The notes: a model not told the origin generated them from the sequence alone. A DNA stretch of 20,000 nt from an uncultured virus (IMG/VR IMGVR_UViG_3300030101_003309) (IMGVR_UViG_3300030101_003309:45898-65897); one strand, 5' to 3'. Shown: positions 1 to 5,911, counted from the stretch's first letter. Made by a program: numbers and translations.

Positions 1-732
1 GCTAGACAGCAAGGCGTTGAGTACATAGATCAACATCATTTTATTAGATACAGTTCTGATGATGATTGTGAAGGGCCTTTATGTGTAGATCATTTTGCTG
101 CTAAAATAGAGTATTTAAAAGATGGATTTGCAGATGTAGAATATTTTGAAGTATCTGAAAGATATAGACACAAACATAATAAAGACTTATCTTTTAGTAT
201 AGGTTTCACACACAGACTTGCAGAACCATACGGATATAATCCGCTGCAAGAATGGATCTTGGATAATGGAAATTTACATTACACTTACTTAGCAATACAA
301 GAAGGATACACAATAGATGTTGTAAATAGTGAGTATAAAGATCCTTCTGGAAACCTAGTTGCTACAAGTCCAGAGGTTTGGAAAGAGGTGGTAATACCAA
401 AAGTATTAGCAGACTACACGCAGAAGAAAAGAAACGAATTAGAAAGAATTATACAACACTCTTTAGTTATTGGTTTTGACTATTATAAATACAGTAAAAA
501 TACATGGCTACACGCATGGGGCAATTTATTGCCTTGGCATTATAATGATAGTAATCAATTTTCTTATCACAATTATATAGAGGATGATCAATGGTATGAC
601 TATACTGCAGGTTTGATATACGGAATAAAAGTAAACAAAAATTTAGGATATTTTGTAGAAGGCAAATACAATAAGTACTGGAATAGAGAATGGTACGACT
701 TTAAATTAGGTGTTAACTATATAATATTTTAA
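1..732 (+). CDS. Outer-membrane beta-barrel protein, 5'-truncated by the window
   Basis: Frame is open from base 1 (ARQQGVEYIDQHHFIRY...), so the TTG at 259 is not the start. Aromatic-rich amphipathic strands (YTAGLIYGIKV, LGYFVEGKY) and C-terminal YDFKLGVNYIIF resemble a BAM beta-signal with terminal Phe. Confidence 0.65.
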   Translation, partial: ARQQGVEYIDQHHFIRYSSDDDCEGPLCVDHFAAKIEYLKDGFADVEYFEVSERYRHKHNKDLSFSIGFTHRLAEPYGYNPLQEWILDNGNLHYTYLAIQEGYTIDVVNSEYKDPSGNLVATSPEVWKEVVIPKVLADYTQKKRNELERIIQHSLVIGFDYYKYSKNTWLHAWGNLLPWHYNDSNQFSYHNYIEDDQWYDYTAGLIYGIKVNKNLGYFVEGKYNKYWNREWYDFKLGVNYIIF

Positions 733-733
733 A

Positions 734-817
734 ATGAAAAAAATAATTTGTAAATTTGTAAAAATAATAACTTTTGGAAAAATTTGTTTGAACGACTGTT
801 ATTGTAACAAAAAATAA
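734..817 (+). CDS. 27-aa Cys-rich basic micropeptide (MKKIICKFVKIITFGKICLNDCYCNKK)
   Basis: Hand-translated; ATG 1 nt after the previous stop and TAA 3 nt before the next ATG, so it fills the gap exactly; 4 Cys. Confidence 0.6.
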   Translation: MKKIICKFVKIITFGKICLNDCYCNKK

Positions 818-820
818 AAA

Positions 821-1102
821 ATGGCTAAAGAGTTAAGCGAAGAAACATCCTTTCAGGTAAGTGTAAAAACACTTGGAGGTATTGCTGCCTTAATTGCAAC
901 ATTAGTTGGTATGTGGTTTACATTACAAGCGGATATTGCTGAAGCAAAAGAATTGCCCGCTCCACCAGATCCAGAGGTTACAAGAATGGAGTTTGATATG
1001 AAAGACCAGATGATACGTCAAACAATCATGGACACAAAAAAAGATGTGGAAGAAATGAAAGAAACTCTTGAGAAAATAGAAGATAAGCTTTACAACAGAT
1101 AA
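821..1102 (+). CDS. Single-TM membrane protein with Pro linker and C-terminal coiled coil
   Basis: TM segment LGGIAALIATLVGMWFTL, linker LPAPPDP, heptad-like DVEEMKETLEKIEDKL; TAATG coupling to the next gene. Confidence 0.75.
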   Translation: MAKELSEETSFQVSVKTLGGIAALIATLVGMWFTLQADIAEAKELPAPPDPEVTRMEFDMKDQMIRQTIMDTKKDVEEMKETLEKIEDKLYNR

Positions 1103-1461
1103 TGAAAAAATCTGATAGTTTTTACCAGTTCGTAATATACTTTTTAATAATGATATTTGTGTTTTTTGCTGGTACTGCTTTTGGACAAATAAAGGTAATA
1201 CAGTTTAATGCTGCTTGGAATAGTGCAAATGATGTTGCTTGGGTTAACAATTTAAAAGAATGTAAAAGCATAGGATACACAGATGTAGCAAAAAATGTAG
1301 AAGCACAAAAAAAACATAAGATTGCAGTCGTGCCTACTATAATAATATTTAAAGATGGAGAAGAAGTGGCAAGATTTCAAGCTGATTTGAGTTTTAAAAT
1401 GGTTGCAACAAAAGAAGAAGTACAAGAAGAAATAGATAATCAAATGATGAGTGATTTTTAA
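1102..1461 (+). CDS. Exported thioredoxin-fold protein lacking the CxxC motif
   Basis: Signal peptide ending TAFG|Q; VIQFNAAWNSAN aligns with Trx VDFWAEWCGPC; KHKIAVVPTIIIFKDGEEVARF matches the cis-Pro strand region of thioredoxins. Confidence 0.75.
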   Translation: MKKSDSFYQFVIYFLIMIFVFFAGTAFGQIKVIQFNAAWNSANDVAWVNNLKECKSIGYTDVAKNVEAQKKHKIAVVPTIIIFKDGEEVARFQADLSFKMVATKEEVQEEIDNQMMSDF

Positions 1462-1462
1462 T

Positions 1463-3673
1463 ATGAAAAATATATTTTTGTCTATACTATTATTACCTTT
1501 ATTTGTTTTTGGACAAAAGGATTTTGTAGTACATATAACTACTGATAGCTATCCGTCAGAAACAAGGTGGGTATTGTTTGCAGACAGTTTTCAAGGACCA
1601 ATTATATCGGAAGTACAATTTGGGCATTATACTTTACAAAATACAACACACACAGATACGGTATTATTAGCGGACAGCATAACGAATATATCTTGGGTTA
1701 TATATGACTCGTATGGCGATGGTATACCAGGAGGTAGTTATTATGTTTCAGTTTGTGAAGATACTATCGTTAGTTACCCTAACCCTACATTTACAACTGG
1801 CTTAATTCATAATAGAGTAGTGCCTCAATGCATGCCTCAACCACCACCTTGCGTTCCTGCTAAAGTTATAATAAATTTAGACCAATATCAAGGCGAAACT
1901 AGTTGGGACATAAAAGACAGTAATGGTGTAGTGTATGCACAATCAGTAACTTATGCGGGTAATCCAGATTACGCGACTATTGTAGTGCCTGTATGTATAC
2001 CAAAAGGTGAGTTAATATTTACTATGTATGACAGCTATGGTGACGGATTGAATGGTTCGTTATGGCAAGGACAAGACGGATCATATTTCGTAAAGCAATG
2101 TAATGATACATTAGTATATGGCACAGATCCTGCTTTTGGGACTGACACGTCACATGTATTTGTTTCTGATTCTTGCCCACCCATATATGGATGTACAGAT
2201 GATGATTATGTAGAATGGAATCCATTTGCAGACGTAGACGATGGTAGTTGTCAAACTTTAAAAATATATGGATGCACCGATTCTACAATGTTTAATTTTG
2301 ATCCGAATGCTAATACTATGGATATGATTGCAGATTGTGAGTTTACCTTAGTGTTGCATGATCTAATGGGTAACGGATGGGTAGGTTCGCATTTAGTTTT
2401 GAATCATCCAGATAGTGTATATCACTTTAATCACACAGGTGGATTTAACGATGAATATCAAATGAATTTATCAGCACCTGCACCAATGGAGTTTATATTT
2501 CATATATCGGCTCAAGCAGCACTAACAACTATAGAGTGTGGTTTTACTTTTATTAATCCTGAAGGAGATACCTTGATAAGTATACAGCCACCTTTTATAC
2601 AGCCTTTATTTCCATATGGACTACTTACAAATTGTGGTAATACCTGCGAAGAAAAAGTTTATGGGTGTTTAGATTCATTGGCAATTAATTATGATGAAGA
2701 AGCAAACACTAGTGACTCTAGTTGTTATTATACGCCAGGTTGTACTAACTCAAGTTATTTAGAATATTATACACAAGGTTTTGTAGCAGACTATGATGAT
2801 GGCAGTTGTATTATTAAAGCTGTATGGGGCTGTATGGATACATCAGCATTCAATTATGATTCTACTGCTAATATAGACAATGGAGGCTGTGTTCCTGTAA
2901 TATACGGATGTATGCAGCCGCTTGCCTATAATTACAACCCAAATGCAAATACCGCAGATACTTGTATAGCATTTTTGTATGGGTGTACTGATCCAACAAT
3001 GTACAATTATAATCCGTTAGCTAATGCTGATGATGGTAGTTGTATACCTTATGTGTTTGGTTGCACAGATTCAACAATGTTTAACTTTAATCCACTAGCA
3101 AATGCTGACAATAATTCTTGCATACCTTATATTTATGGTTGTACTGACCCTAGCATGCTTAATTACAACCCACAAGCAAACACTGAAGATTTTAGTTGTA
3201 TCGCTTATATATATGGTTGTACCGATAGTTCTGCTTTTAACTATGACTCTTTGGCTAATACTGATAATGGTTCGTGTATATCTATTGTTGAAGGATGTAT
3301 GGATCTCAATGCGTACAACTACAATGAAATAGCTAATGTAAACGACACATTGTCTTGTTTATATGCTGCGAATTGTATAACTGGACCAGGAGTACCATAT
3401 TGGTTAAATGATCCGTGCTATGAATGGGTAATATCTGTAGATGAATATTGTTGCCAAAATCAGTGGGATAATATATGTCAATTAACTTATAACTATTGTG
3501 ATGGTTCTTATTATGGTCCAATTCCTAAGCGTGTAGCCAAAAAATTAATTGCAATAACAGATCTGTTGGGTAGACCTGTAAACAATATTAAAAATAAATT
3601 TGTTATCTTTATATACGATAACGGCACAACAGAAAAAAAATTAATAAAAAAATGGCGGTACTTACAACAATAA
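1463..3673 (+). CDS. Secreted Cys/Asp-rich GCxD-repeat protein with T9SS-like C-terminal sorting domain
   Basis: ATG at 1463 gives signal peptide MKNIFLSILLLPLFVFG|Q. Two to three DSYGDG-type modules, 11 GC[TML][DNQ]...C repeats, a CC..WD..C module, and C-terminal KKLIAITDLLGR...FIYDNGTTEKKLIK. Confidence 0.8.
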   Translation: MKNIFLSILLLPLFVFGQKDFVVHITTDSYPSETRWVLFADSFQGPIISEVQFGHYTLQNTTHTDTVLLADSITNISWVIYDSYGDGIPGGSYYVSVCEDTIVSYPNPTFTTGLIHNRVVPQCMPQPPPCVPAKVIINLDQYQGETSWDIKDSNGVVYAQSVTYAGNPDYATIVVPVCIPKGELIFTMYDSYGDGLNGSLWQGQDGSYFVKQCNDTLVYGTDPAFGTDTSHVFVSDSCPPIYGCTDDDYVEWNPFADVDDGSCQTLKIYGCTDSTMFNFDPNANTMDMIADCEFTLVLHDLMGNGWVGSHLVLNHPDSVYHFNHTGGFNDEYQMNLSAPAPMEFIFHISAQAALTTIECGFTFINPEGDTLISIQPPFIQPLFPYGLLTNCGNTCEEKVYGCLDSLAINYDEEANTSDSSCYYTPGCTNSSYLEYYTQGFVADYDDGSCIIKAVWGCMDTSAFNYDSTANIDNGGCVPVIYGCMQPLAYNYNPNANTADTCIAFLYGCTDPTMYNYNPLANADDGSCIPYVFGCTDSTMFNFNPLANADNNSCIPYIYGCTDPSMLNYNPQANTEDFSCIAYIYGCTDSSAFNYDSLANTDNGSCISIVEGCMDLNAYNYNEIANVNDTLSCLYAANCITGPGVPYWLNDPCYEWVISVDEYCCQNQWDNICQLTYNYCDGSYYGPIPKRVAKKLIAITDLLGRPVNNIKNKFVIFIYDNGTTEKKLIKKWRYLQQ
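2183..3358 (+). repeat. 11 degenerate ~24-28 aa repeats, consensus YGCTDxxAxNYxxxANxDDGSC (2 copies, a spacer domain, then 9 tandem copies)
   Basis: Counted directly in the translation; DNA copies are diverged at synonymous sites. Confidence 0.9.
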
Positions 3674-3921
3674 ATGGTATACCTTTGTATACTACAGTAG
3701 CTGAAGCTTTATCGTATGCTGCAGCAAATGGGCTATCAGGGTTTCACACACATAATTATCAAGGACAATTAGGGTATATGGGTGGAGCTACACATAGTCA
3801 AGCAGCTACACCATCTTCAGGTTTTAATCCAAATAATCAAACTAACACACCCCCTGCAACAAGCTCTGCTGGTTTTTCTAGTGGCGGAAGTAGTGGTGGA
3901 GGCGGTGGCGGAGGTTACTAA
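3652..3921 (+). CDS. Small hypothetical protein with Gly/Ser low-complexity tail
   Basis: A-rich leader; GFHTH..G..GYMGG core; ends SSGGSSGGGGGGGY. Confidence 0.7.
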   Translation: MAVLTTINGIPLYTTVAEALSYAAANGLSGFHTHNYQGQLGYMGGATHSQAATPSSGFNPNNQTNTPPATSSAGFSSGGSSGGGGGGGY

Positions 3922-3931
3922 ATAATTTAAT

Positions 3932-4318
3932 ATGTTAAGCAAAATATTTTCAGCAGGTGCAGGAGAACTAATAAAAAATGTAGGTGGAGTTATAGATAAT
4001 CTTCATACATCAGCAGAAGAAAAAGCAGATGCTGAAAGAAAAATAAAAGATATGATAATGGGTTACGAAGCAGAAATGCAAAAACAAGTAACCGAACGTT
4101 GGAAAGTAGACATGGCCTCTGATTCTTGGTTGTCAAAAAATATCAGACCATTAGTGTTAATATTTTTATGCGTATCTACAGTACTTTTAATATTTATTGA
4201 TGCTGGTGTAATATCTTTTGAAGTAAAAGCATCTTGGGTAGATTTGTTACAATTAGTTTTAATAACTGTAATTGGTGCGTATTTTGGAGGTAGATCATTA
4301 GAAAAAGTTAAAAAATGA
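3932..4318 (+). CDS. Holin of the 3TM / GTA-holin type
   Basis: SDSWLSKNIRPL, two C-terminal TM helices and the YFGGRSLEK motif typical of this family. Confidence 0.8.
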   Translation: MLSKIFSAGAGELIKNVGGVIDNLHTSAEEKADAERKIKDMIMGYEAEMQKQVTERWKVDMASDSWLSKNIRPLVLIFLCVSTVLLIFIDAGVISFEVKASWVDLLQLVLITVIGAYFGGRSLEKVKK

Positions 4319-5434: not shown

Positions 5435-5911
5435 ATGAAACTTAAAGTATTAAGATTTAGTAGCCAGGAGGATAGTACTTCTGGCTTACTTTTTTTAGAA
5501 GGAGATTTAGGTCTTGAATTTTTGTGTTATACATTAGAAGATGAAAGAAGAGCACTAAAGATAAAAGGAGAAACAAGGGTACCTGCAGGTATATACGAAA
5601 TAAAATTAAGAACAGAAGGTGGTTTTCATGCTAAATACAAAAAAAGATTTGCTCCAATACATAAAGGGATGCTACACGTTATTGACGTGCCGAATTTTAA
5701 ATGGGTACTTATACACACTGGTAATACTGATGAACATACTGCTGGATGCCTTTTGGTTGGCGACTCGCAAGAAAACAATATCATCATCAAGGATGGGTTC
5801 ATTGGAAAATCAACTAATGCGTACAAGAGAATATATCCGAATATTGCTAAAGCGATAGACAGGGGAGATAAGGTTACCATACAATATATAGACTTAGATA
5901 AAAATATCTAA
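5435..5911 (+). CDS. DUF5675-like protein, candidate peptidoglycan hydrolase (His/Cys, YkuD-like motif)
   Basis: MKLKVLR..STSG, CYTLEDE, TRVPAGIY and LIHTGNTDEHTAGCLLVG are hallmark motifs of this Bacteroidota phage family. Confidence 0.75.
   Translation: MKLKVLRFSSQEDSTSGLLFLEGDLGLEFLCYTLEDERRALKIKGETRVPAGIYEIKLRTEGGFHAKYKKRFAPIHKGMLHVIDVPNFKWVLIHTGNTDEHTAGCLLVGDSQENNIIIKDGFIGKSTNAYKRIYPNIAKAIDRGDKVTIQYIDLDKNI

What the first reader, a model, noticed from the sequence alone, without database searches (positions are those of the whole stretch)
1..3673. Phage-encoded multi-compartment cell-envelope cassette: OMP + micropeptide + TM coiled coil + redox-dead thioredoxin + T9SS-type cargo
Seen: five + strand genes separated by at most 3 nt, with predicted locations spanning the envelope. 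These are a beta-barrel with terminal Phe (outer membrane), a 4-Cys peptide, a single-pass coiled coil (inner membrane), a Sec-exported Trx fold (periplasm) and a signal-peptide + CTD protein (cell surface). They sit just upstream of holin and tail genes. Known: such protein types are host surface machinery in Bacteroidota, not standard phage morphogenesis or lysis genes. Inference: a dedicated phage surface-remodelling or display system, e.g. for superinfection exclusion, adhesion of infected cells to particles, vesicle-associated release, or a non-canonical outer-membrane lysis step. I know of no description of such an operon.
Basis: partly seen in the sequence, partly recalled or inferred. 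Interest (0 to 1): 0.82.

Follow-up and report, generated by a model that had tools for sequence, protein, structure and literature searches.

The report
Phage envelope gene set with secretion-tagged cargo
An uncultured ocean phage of flavobacteria sends four of its own proteins into its host's inner membrane, periplasm, outer membrane and probably cell surface; the set travels with the cell-bursting genes across very different phages, and its job, possibly opening the outer membrane, has never been tested.

Summary
The window is the last 20 kb of a 65.9-kb marine crAss-like phage record. In its late operon lie p1 (a 12-strand outer-membrane barrel of 371 aa that starts 383 nt before the window), p2 (a 27-aa 4-Cys ORF), p3 (a membrane helix plus a short heptad helix), p4 (a Sec-exported thioredoxin fold with no CxxC) and p5 (736 aa, signal peptide, three beta-sandwich domains, Cys mini-repeats, C-terminal tail).

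- p1, p3, p4 and p5 co-occur in related viral contigs. p3 and p4 are always adjacent.
- The set and the holin stay 56-88% identical in phages whose portal is only 21-29% identical.
- The p5 tail is not a canonical T9SS domain. It matches a C-terminal tag on 28-51 secreted proteins per genome in small marine Flavobacteriales genomes.
- Three p5 orthologues carry a true T9SS type A domain in place of that tail.
- p1 is phage-specific, and the genome has no lipoprotein candidate for an o-spanin.

Best reading (inferred): a lysis-linked envelope module in which p3-p4-p1 bridge the two membranes like a spanin, plus a T9SS-sorted adhesin-like cargo. Function is untested. This scan has met the same cassette on other genomes before.

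The parts
1..732 (+). p1: the 3' 243 codons of a 371-aa phage-specific outer-membrane beta-barrel. The gene starts 383 nt upstream of the window, at genome 45514.
   Evidence: ORF. AF2 model of 12 strands. Z 15.8-12 to Tsx, KdgM, NanC and autotransporter barrels; Foldseek E 9e-8. No Pfam, PHROG or NCBIfam family. 3679 homologues, all unnamed.
734..817 (+). p2: a 27-aa basic ORF with 4 Cys. Doubtful or lineage-limited member.
   Evidence: tblastn finds it in 13 of 80 loci, and it is an intact ATG ORF in all 13. Net charge +6; its amphipathic moment is not above shuffles (fraction 0.30).
821..1102 (+). p3: a 93-aa bitopic membrane protein with a short N-terminal segment, one hydrophobic helix and about 57 aa of helical, heptad-patterned C-terminal domain.
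   Evidence: Alignment A3 of 68 sequences has an invariant R-M-E-F-x-M-K-D block. No PDB or family match.
1102..1461 (+). p4: a 119-aa Sec-exported thioredoxin-fold protein without CxxC. Its start overlaps the p3 stop.
   Evidence: The p3-to-p4 gap is -11 to +12 nt in 70 of 70 loci. W-N-x-x-N, the cis-Pro motif and the C-terminal M-S-D-F are invariant.
1463..3673 (+). p5: a 736-aa secreted modular protein. It has a signal peptide, three beta-sandwich domains (aa 18-120, 131-235, 291-388), about 11 two-Cys mini-repeats (aa 244-292 and 400-632) and a helical Cys-rich domain (aa 646-679).
   Evidence: AF2 model pLDDT 69.1. Foldseek gives only generic C2/galectin/CUB-type sandwiches. Homologues are 611-1055 aa with shuffled N-terminal domains.
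3533..3670 (+). p5 C-terminal sorting tail (about aa 691-736), with conserved D-L-L-G-R and I-Y-D-x-G-T motifs.
   Evidence: No TIGR04183 hit. The same tail ends 85 of 85 inspected ORF instances in marine Flavobacteriales genomes and occurs on 28-51 ORFs per small genome. hhalign to type A CTD: 76% probability, E 2.3e-5. Three orthologues have a true TIGR04183 domain instead.
3652..3921 (+). p6: an 89-aa protein with a Gly-rich tail and no export signal. It overlaps the end of p5. Membership is unclear.
   Evidence: tblastn finds it in 18 of 80 loci.
3932..4318 (+). Holin, co-conserved with the cassette.
   Evidence: phrog_3427 E 1.3e-31; PF11351 at 24.1 bits, just under its 24.8 cut-off. It is 68-88% identical in 13 loci outside this phage's own lineage.
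5435..5911 (+). DUF5675 protein, a possible cell-wall hydrolase of the lysis set. This role is unproven.
   Evidence: PF18925 E 3.5e-27. No PDB sequence match. The enzyme idea rests on a recalled H...G-C motif resemblance to YkuD enzymes.

Best explanation
SHOWN BY SEQUENCE. This is a conserved set of exported late proteins of marine crAss-like phages that infect small-genome Flavobacteriales. It lies at the end of the structural/lysis operon and is kept or exchanged together with the holin. p1 goes to the outer membrane as a 12-strand barrel. p3 is anchored in the inner membrane with a short helical periplasmic domain. p4 is a periplasmic thioredoxin fold that cannot do redox chemistry. p5 is a variable, adhesin-like, disulfide-rich protein that carries the host's own C-terminal sorting tag.

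INFERRED.
(1) p5 is exported by Sec, folds oxidatively in the periplasm and is then passed outward by the host's T9SS, because its tail can be exchanged with a true T9SS type A domain.
(2) p3, p4 and p1 form an inner-membrane to outer-membrane link. Once holin and wall hydrolase have acted, this link breaks or fuses the outer membrane. It would be a spanin-like last step of lysis in which a barrel plus a soluble adaptor replace the usual lipoprotein.

The p5 cargo may coat the cell surface, for example by masking receptors so that progeny are not lost on debris.
For: - Export signals occur only on these genes and the holin within the late operon (crude scan).
- A Gln follows the hydrophobic segment and is invariant in p4 and at least 90% conserved in p1 and p5. 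This fits the Bacteroidota signal-peptidase 'Q rule', which is recalled, not looked up.
- The p1 barrel fold is supported.
- p4 has a thioredoxin fold without Cys.
- p3 and p4 are adjacent in 70 of 70 loci and overlap in 52 of them.
- Co-occurrence in related loci: p1 80, p3 73, p4 71, p5 67 of 80. The three gene orders seen are cyclic rotations of one order (39, 14 and 2 of 55 loci).
- In five contigs the portal is 21, 22, 23, 29 and 84% identical, and the capsid protein is undetected in three, 30% and 82%. In the same contigs p1 is 63-78%, p3 59-80%, p4 56-67% and p5 50-64% identical.
- In loci outside this lineage the holin is 68-88% identical, but the exonuclease is only 33-35% in 7 of the 8 where it is found (81% in L074).
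- In a distant phage (L046) an endolysin (phrog_894, E 5e-28) lies two genes after p5.
- No lipobox ORF exists in any called gene, so there is no canonical o-spanin or u-spanin.
- Kongari et al. 2018 (PMC6139136, abstract and section 15 read) state that an outer-membrane protein could in principle act as an o-spanin.
- The T9SS link rests.
Against: - No binding among p1, p3 and p4 is shown.
- Spanins are among the most divergent phage proteins (143 i-spanin families, more than 40% singletons; abstract of PMC6139136). This trio is instead unusually conserved (mean column identity 71% in p1). That fits contact with conserved host machinery, an enzymatic role or recent transfer better than a plain membrane bridge.
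- p3 has no Cys, whereas intermolecular disulfides are proposed as a general feature of two-component spanins.
- Its periplasmic part is only about 57 aa.
- The steady company of p5 is not needed by a lysis model.
- The tail fails TIGR04183, and its link to the type A domain is modest (76% probability over 39 columns).
- Signal peptides, topology and coiled coil come from crude rules.
- The host assignment rests on MAG titles.
Confidence: 0.4

Rival explanations
1. A dedicated surface-display system. p5 is the product and the other three serve it. p1 anchors or receives p5 at the outer membrane, as PorP/SprF-like barrels do for T9SS type B cargo. The p3-p4 pair holds the cysteine-rich p5 in the periplasm, with a redox-dead thioredoxin groove acting as holdase. 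The purpose would be receptor masking, superinfection exclusion or adhesion.
For: - All four genes stay together, and p5 lies directly before p1 in the 3-4-5-1 order seen in 14 of 55 loci.
- p5 has 37 Cys and shuffled N-terminal domains, as expected of a host-contact protein.
- The residues conserved in p4 lie where thioredoxins bind peptides (their location on the fold is recalled).
- The same Cys mini-repeats occur in long signal-less proteins of sibling phages and in a cyanophage protein annotated as a virion structural protein.
Against: - p1 shows no homology to host PorP/SprF; hhalign aligns only the signal peptide at 26% probability.
- Host genomes carry 28-51 tail-bearing proteins without any p1 homologue, so the tail does not need p1.
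- Small unrelated ORFs often separate p4 from p5, with gaps up to 2.9 kb.
- The holin is co-conserved with the set.
- Earlier notes of this scan say the trio also occurs without cargo. That was not tested here.
Confidence: 0.25
2. Unrelated accessory genes that merely share a late-operon hot spot. For example, p1 could be a Tsx/KdgM-like solute channel that raises uptake during infection, with p4, p3 and p5 each doing separate jobs.
For: - The best fold matches of p1 include the nucleoside channel Tsx and the sugar-acid channels KdgM and NanC.
- Small variable ORFs are inserted at the junctions, as in moron hot spots.
Against: - p3-p4 adjacency in 70 of 70 loci, and the conserved cyclic order of all four genes, are hard to get by chance.
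- The genes sit in the late structural/lysis operon, not among the early genes on the other strand.
- A barrel made late has little time to feed replication.
Confidence: 0.12
3. An artefact or an ordinary locus: host genes joined by a prophage boundary or a chimeric assembly, or plain virion proteins.
For: The p1 profile hits 2 of 301 Flavobacteriales genomes. A few tail or p5 hits lie on contigs binned as Rickettsiales, Comamonadaceae, Thalassomonas or Pelagibacterales.
Against: - The cassette lies inside a 98%-complete phage record, between virion genes and the holin.
- 135 viral stretches encode p1.
- One of the two genome hits is the cassette itself (p5-p1-p3-p4) on a MAG contig.
- Sec signals on three proteins exclude assembly into a cytoplasmic tailed virion (established knowledge).
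Confidence: 0.02

Closest known systems
Two-component spanins (lambda Rz/Rz1 type; Kongari et al. 2018, PMC6139136, abstract and section 15 read)
   Same: Both are encoded with the lysis genes. Both include a small bitopic inner-membrane protein with a helical periplasmic domain whose gene overlaps the next exported gene. In both, an outer-membrane partner would allow an envelope-spanning link. The paper notes that an outer-membrane protein could act as an o-spanin.
   Different: There is no lipoprotein and there are no periplasmic Cys in p3. There are three parts instead of two, including a thioredoxin fold and a beta-barrel. Conservation is far higher than is usual for spanins. No sequence homology and no functional test.
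Phage-encoded T9SS type A cargo of 'Cryophage' (Bellas et al. 2020, PMC7468147, passages read)
   Same: Both are variable phage genes for secreted proteins that carry the Bacteroidota C-terminal sorting signal, presumed to hijack the host T9SS. Three p5 orthologues carry the same TIGR04183 domain.
   Different: Here the cargo is non-enzymatic by fold and Cys-repeat rich. In this window it bears a shorter tag that no current model covers. It is tied to a conserved barrel, membrane-protein and thioredoxin-fold trio and to the holin.
T9SS type A C-terminal domain (TIGR04183 / PF18962)
   Same: Both sit at the extreme C-terminus of Sec-signal proteins of many kinds in T9SS-bearing Flavobacteriales. 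A profile-profile match covers the last two thirds of the domain. Orthologues exchange one for the other.
   Different: The tail is about 45 aa against about 72. It lacks the P-N-P strand and one middle strand. 0 of 19 host tail proteins and the window's p5 reach the model.
Twelve-strand outer-membrane barrels (Tsx, KdgM/NanC, autotransporter translocators, FapF, LpxR)
   Same: The predicted fold and strand number agree.
   Different: Sequence identity is only 4-12%. p1 has a 75-residue, highly conserved insertion between strands 7 and 8. No family model matches.
PorP/SprF outer-membrane partners of T9SS type B cargo
   Same: Both are barrel genes encoded next to a T9SS-type cargo gene.
   Different: No detectable homology. 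The cargo tail resembles type A, not type B.

Membership tests
T9SS type A cargo (TIGR04183 CTD) | C-terminal domain scoring above the model's cut-off (23 bits) | tested here: not met
   The window's p5 and its last 90 aa give no hit at E <= 1. Three orthologues score 33, 42.4 and 38.6 bits.
T9SS type A cargo (TIGR04183 CTD) | N-terminal Sec signal peptide | tested here: inconclusive
   There is a K-rich start, a hydrophobic run and G-Q, and Q18 is at least 90% conserved. No dedicated predictor was run.
T9SS type A cargo (TIGR04183 CTD) | Host possesses a T9SS | tested here: met
   Among genomes that use the same tail, SprA_N is found in 3 of 5 (the other two are fragmented MAGs), PorP/SprF in 5 of 5, and TIGR04183 proteins number 37-67 or more each. 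That these genomes are the hosts is inferred.
T9SS type A cargo (TIGR04183 CTD) | Export depends on T9SS and the tag is removed by PorU | not testable with these tools
   Needs secretion assays in T9SS mutants.
Host C-terminal tail tag (unmodelled; marine Flavobacteriales) | The same motif at the extreme C-terminus of many unrelated signal-peptide proteins | tested here: met
   At least 540 confirmed hits. 85 of 85 instances end 7-10 aa before the stop. Carriers include LRR, plastocyanin-like, PHB-depolymerase-like and choice-of-anchor J/X proteins. p5 ends 14 aa after the motif.
Two-component spanin | i-spanin: N-terminal membrane helix with a helical periplasmic domain | tested here: inconclusive
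   p3 has one hydrophobic segment and a heptad spacing read by eye. Topology is not determined.
Two-component spanin | o-spanin: outer-membrane lipoprotein with a lipobox, encoded within, overlapping or near the i-spanin gene | tested here: not met
   No lipobox ORF lies in any called gene; the only three candidates are antisense ORFs inside giant genes. The overlapping gene p4 has a signal-peptidase-I type signal and no Cys at the cleavage site.
Two-component spanin | Periplasmic Cys for intermolecular disulfides | tested here: not met
   p3 has no Cys. The feature is taken from the abstract of PMC6139136.
Two-component spanin | Located with holin and endolysin genes | tested here: met
   The holin starts 259 nt after the end of p5. 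The holin lies within a few kb in 27 of 80 loci. An endolysin lies near the cassette in L046.
Thioredoxin family | Thioredoxin fold | tested here: met
   Profile against PDB thioredoxins, E 3.6e-7 over positions 25-95. Pfam scores are below cut-off.
Thioredoxin family | CxxC redox motif | tested here: not met
   W-N-x-x-N in 66 of 66 sequences. HMMER treats the CGPC of thioredoxin as an insertion relative to p4.
PorP/SprF (PF11751) | Sequence or profile homology to the family | tested here: not met
   No Pfam hit. hhalign of p1 against 12 host PorP/SprF proteins aligns only 22 signal-peptide columns at 26.5% probability.
Crassvirales-like phage | Crass-type capsid, portal, terminase and tail ring genes | tested here: met
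   PF23898 E 1.5e-37, PF25702 E 2.9e-7, phrog_6547 and phrog_6681. The capsid protein is 24-29% identical to gut crAss-like phages. No phylogeny was made, so order membership is not settled.

The most novel reading that the evidence does not exclude
Marine Flavobacteriales phages open the outer membrane with a three-part device unlike any spanin or disruptin: an inner-membrane helix protein, a redox-dead periplasmic thioredoxin adaptor and a phage-made beta-barrel in the o-spanin role. The same module also ships an adhesin-like coat protein through the host's T9SS. That protein uses a truncated sorting tag about 45 aa long, which current T9SS models miss and which marks dozens of secreted proteins in streamlined ocean flavobacteria.
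Probability: 0.3. Interest if true: 0.85.

Novelty: new variant of a known kind. Interest (0 to 1): 0.68.

Why it matters
- p1 has 3679 homologous clusters at 90% identity, mostly from ocean data. These are therefore among the commonest unexplained genes of marine Bacteroidota phages.
- How Bacteroidota phages breach the outer membrane is unknown. In the spanin survey, Bacteroides and Croceibacter phages are listed among those with no spanin (PMC6139136, section 15).
- If the trio does this job, it is a new lysis principle and a new use of a dead thioredoxin.
- Independently, the short C-terminal tag would extend the recognisable T9SS secretome of abundant, uncultured, small-genome marine Flavobacteriales by 28-51 proteins per genome.
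- The tag also gives a sequence-based way to assign hosts to such phages.

Tried and rejected
- **Complex prediction.** The job used mature p1, the periplasmic part of p3 and mature p4, with p4 as partner. It gave no answer (score 0.00, mark 0.32, controls not run). It counts neither for nor against binding.
- **Family searches.** Pfam, PHROGs and NCBIfam name nothing for p1, p2, p3 or p5. Pfam on 21 divergent p1 homologues gave nothing relevant.
- **Cultured phages.** tblastn of p1 against 50,697 phage records found no match. p5 hit only its repeats in 5 records. The DNA search found only tail-fibre pieces.
- **p3.** The PDB profile search found nothing below E 0.2. ESM Atlas gave only unnamed viral clusters; DUF2730 at 0.83 is below the trust level.
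- **p5 domain 2 in the Atlas.** Unnamed viral clusters only.
- **p5 Foldseek.** Top rows are ferlin C2 arrays with TM <= 0.17. I read these as generic beta-sandwiches, not as a family.
- **p2 as a cationic amphipathic 'disruptin-like' peptide.** Its hydrophobic moment is not above shuffles, so the idea was dropped.
- **p2 as an o-spanin lipoprotein.** It has no lipobox (read from the sequence; one search found none).
- **Fused p3-p4 or longer p4 forms.** One odd 340-aa protein with AAA domains was found, likely chimeric.
- **p1 as PorP/SprF.** Rejected.
- **DUF5675 against the PDB by sequence.** Nothing.
- **Literature.** Full-text searches found Cryophage and the spanin survey but no paper on this cassette. 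The searches were 'type IX secretion' + 'phage-encoded' + 'C-terminal domain'; crAss-like + marine + Flavobacteriales + 'outer membrane protein'; spanin + Bacteroidetes; Crassvirales + marine; and T9SS + phage + cargo. Subscription journals are not covered.
- **Own-genome notes.** None.

Full report
**What is there.**
The window is bases 45898-65897 of a 65,897-bp IMG/VR virus record judged 98% complete. The record has a crAss-type capsid protein (PF23898, E 1.5e-37), a crAss tail ring protein 2, and portal and terminase of crAss-related PHROGs. It also has a tail lysozyme domain and giant ORFs of 2287 and 3814 aa. The 2287-aa ORF matches a virion structural PHROG. The capsid protein is only 24-29% identical to gut crAss-like phages, and no cultured relative carries the cassette.

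In the window, the + strand up to about 10.5 kb is the end of the late operon. The - strand beyond holds replication and recombination genes: DnaB-like helicase, Erf-like annealing protein, RusA-like resolvase and exonuclease VIII.

**Check of the observation.**
The five ORFs and their spacing are as described. p1 is cut by the window edge. The full gene encodes 371 aa with a typical N-terminal signal-like segment and a C-terminal Phe.

- **p1.** Its AlphaFold2 model, built from 72 homologues (pLDDT 71.7, pTM 0.65), has 12 long antiparallel strands and a 75-residue insertion between strands 7 and 8. An all-against-all structural search puts 12-strand outer-membrane barrels on top: Tsx Z 15.8, EstA 15.2, KdgM 14.9, NalP 14.7 and NanC 14.5. 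Foldseek agrees.
- **p4.** It matches thioredoxins by profile (E 3.6e-7), but every one of 66 homologues has W-N-x-x-N where thioredoxin has W-C-x-x-C. The cis-Pro motif, a block R-F-Q-A-D-L-S-F and the C-terminal M-S-D-F are invariant.
- **p3.** It has one hydrophobic segment and a short heptad-patterned helix. It has no relative in PDB or any family library.
- **p5.** Its model shows three confident beta-sandwich domains, a low-confidence string of two-Cys mini-repeats, a small helical Cys-rich domain and a three-strand tail. Structural matches are generic sandwiches of the C2, galectin, CUB and LamG kinds, with no enzyme fold.
- **p2.** It is found in only 13 of 80 related loci, although it is intact there.

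**Conservation and linkage.**
A scan of IMG/VR found 135 stretches encoding p1; 80 loci were kept. tblastn of the window's proteins on these loci finds p1 in 80, p3 in 73, p4 in 71 and a p5-like protein in 67. Most misses are loci that end soon after p1. By contrast, the upstream neighbours are found in only 8-15 loci and the downstream ones in 8-27.

The p3-p4 pair is adjacent in 70 of 70 loci, with gaps of -11 to +12 nt and an overlap in 52. The three gene orders seen are 1-3-4-5 (39 loci), 3-4-5-1 (14) and 5-1-3-4 (2), out of 55 loci with all four genes. These are rotations of one cycle. Small unrelated ORFs are often inserted between p1 and p3 and between p4 and p5.

The most telling result comes from five contigs. 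Their portal proteins are 21, 22, 23, 29 and 84% identical to this phage's. Their capsid proteins are undetected in three, 30% and 82%. Yet p1 is 63-78%, p3 59-80%, p4 56-67% and p5 50-64% identical.

The holin behaves like the cassette, at 68-88% identity in 13 loci outside this phage's own lineage. The exonuclease drops to 33-35% in 7 of the 8 such loci where it is found; the eighth, L074, keeps 81%.

In the distant phages the cassette again follows a giant ORF and ends the late operon. In L046 an endolysin lies two genes after p5.

So the cassette and the holin form one unit that is either exchanged among very different phages or held under unusual constraint.

**The p5 tail.**
The window's p5 does not reach the T9SS type A model, even at E <= 1. 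Most homologues end in the same 45-residue tail. Three end instead in a true TIGR04183 domain (33, 42.4 and 38.6 bits against a cut-off of 23). One of these, L038, is 70% identical to p5 over residues 12-633.

Of the 77 loci kept, all but four carry titles of marine Flavobacteriales or other Bacteroidota MAGs. In these loci all 85 tail instances lie 7-10 residues before a stop codon. They end ORFs of 172-1340 aa, most of which start with signal-like sequences.

Nineteen such host proteins were scanned. They include LRR proteins, a plastocyanin-like protein, PHB-depolymerase-like esterases and choice-of-anchor J and X domains. None matched TIGR04183.

Four small genomes (1.3-2.1 Mb) carry 28-51 tails each, beside 37-67 canonical type A domains. 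A 4.2-Mb Fluviicola genome carries 5 tails and at least 150 canonical domains. SprA is found in 3 of the 5 genomes and PorP/SprF in 5 of 5.

A profile-profile comparison aligns the tail with the last two thirds of the type A domain, with one strand deleted (76% probability, E 2.3e-5, 39 columns).

I conclude that the tail is a host sorting tag, most likely a cut-down T9SS type A domain. p5 is therefore cargo of that pathway. This is inference: no export has been measured.

**Phage-specific or host-derived?**
The p1 profile finds nothing in the five tail-using genomes and hits 2 of 301 Flavobacteriales genomes. One hit is the cassette itself (p5-p1-p3-p4) on a MAG contig; the other is a 28%-identical relative. 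A profile search of 1.84 billion representatives finds 375 relatives and no named family. p4 touches host thioredoxins only weakly. p1 is not a PorP/SprF protein.

**How it most likely works.**
Within the late operon, only p1, p3, p4, p5 and the holin have N-terminal hydrophobic segments. No called gene has a lipobox, so a canonical spanin is absent (crude rules). The unit is tied to the holin in genomes that otherwise differ greatly.

I therefore favour a role in the last stage of infection. In this model p3 (inner membrane), p4 (periplasm) and p1 (outer membrane) form a link that disrupts the outer membrane after the wall is cut. The spanin survey explicitly leaves room for an outer-membrane protein as o-spanin (PMC6139136, section 15). 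p5 would be put on or outside the cell by the T9SS. Its domain shuffling and adhesin-like folds suit surface or receptor binding.

Several things weigh against this. Binding is unshown. The trio's very high conservation is unlike spanins. p3 has no Cys and a short periplasmic part. The model gives p5 no necessary role.

The main rival makes p5 the point of the system and the trio its helpers. A weaker rival sees unrelated accessory genes. An artefact or host locus is excluded for practical purposes.

**Comparison with what is known, and novelty.**
Phage T9SS cargo has one published precedent (Cryophage, PMC7468147, passages read). Spanins are well described. Phage-made outer-membrane proteins are known (recalled: lambda Lom). 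The combination seen here, and the short tag, are not covered by any family library searched, and my five literature searches found no description.

Earlier follow-ups of this same scan met the cassette on at least 16 other genomes and reached the same reading. I reached mine before seeing them and took from them only the lead to the spanin paper.

- The tail is shown to be a widespread host C-terminal tag, with a quantified link to the type A domain.
- There is a measured contrast between the cassette and holin on one side and the portal, capsid and exonuclease on the other.

I did not see the earlier reports in full, so I cannot say whether they cover these points too.

Noticed in passing
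L086-L161 and G001-G005 (host genomes): A C-terminal tag of about 45 aa (D-L-L-G-R ... I-Y-D-D-G-T-V-E-K) ends 28-51 ORFs per genome in 1.3-2.1 Mb marine Flavobacteriales genomes. TIGR04183 misses it (0 of 19 carriers). It looks like a truncated type A T9SS domain (hhalign 76%).
   Followed up: yes
L012:1916-6112, L035:1620-6071, L039:1679-6097: Sibling phages encode proteins of 1399-1484 aa without signal peptides that carry the same two-Cys mini-repeats as p5. A cyanophage S-CAM3 protein annotated as a virion structural protein shares the repeats at 29.5% identity. The repeat may be a shared binding module of virion fibres and secreted cargo.
   Followed up: partly
P0223: One 314-aa metagenomic protein joins an FGE-sulfatase domain (PF03781, E 1.6e-25) to a segment matching the C-terminal third of the p1 profile. 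It may be a chimera or a real fusion. GldK/PorK of the T9SS are of the FGE-sulfatase type (recalled).
   Followed up: no
window 5435-5911: A DUF5675 protein lies three genes after the holin. It contains an H...G-C motif reminiscent of YkuD-type L,D-transpeptidases (recalled), so it may be this phage's wall hydrolase. It has no PDB sequence match.
   Followed up: partly
L085 (MAG titled Rickettsiales), L094, L096, L146: Contigs binned to non-Bacteroidota MAGs carry the tail. L085 carries the whole cassette plus the holin. These are probably mis-binned phage or Flavobacteriales contigs.
   Followed up: partly
L182 (G068:C35): A 405-aa ORF in a Flavobacteriales genome is a distant p1 relative (28% identity over 310 aa). 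Its context was not examined.
   Followed up: no
window 3652-3921: p6 is an 89-aa ORF that overlaps the end of p5 by 22 nt and ends in a run of Gly/Ser. It is found in 18 of 80 loci and its role is unknown.
   Followed up: no
genome 32357-43801 and L046/L070/L077 (ORFs of 2381-2592 aa): A giant ORF without any PHROG match lies shortly upstream of p1, or directly before it, in this phage and in phages with 21-23% identical portals. The cassette's place after it is conserved.
   Followed up: partly
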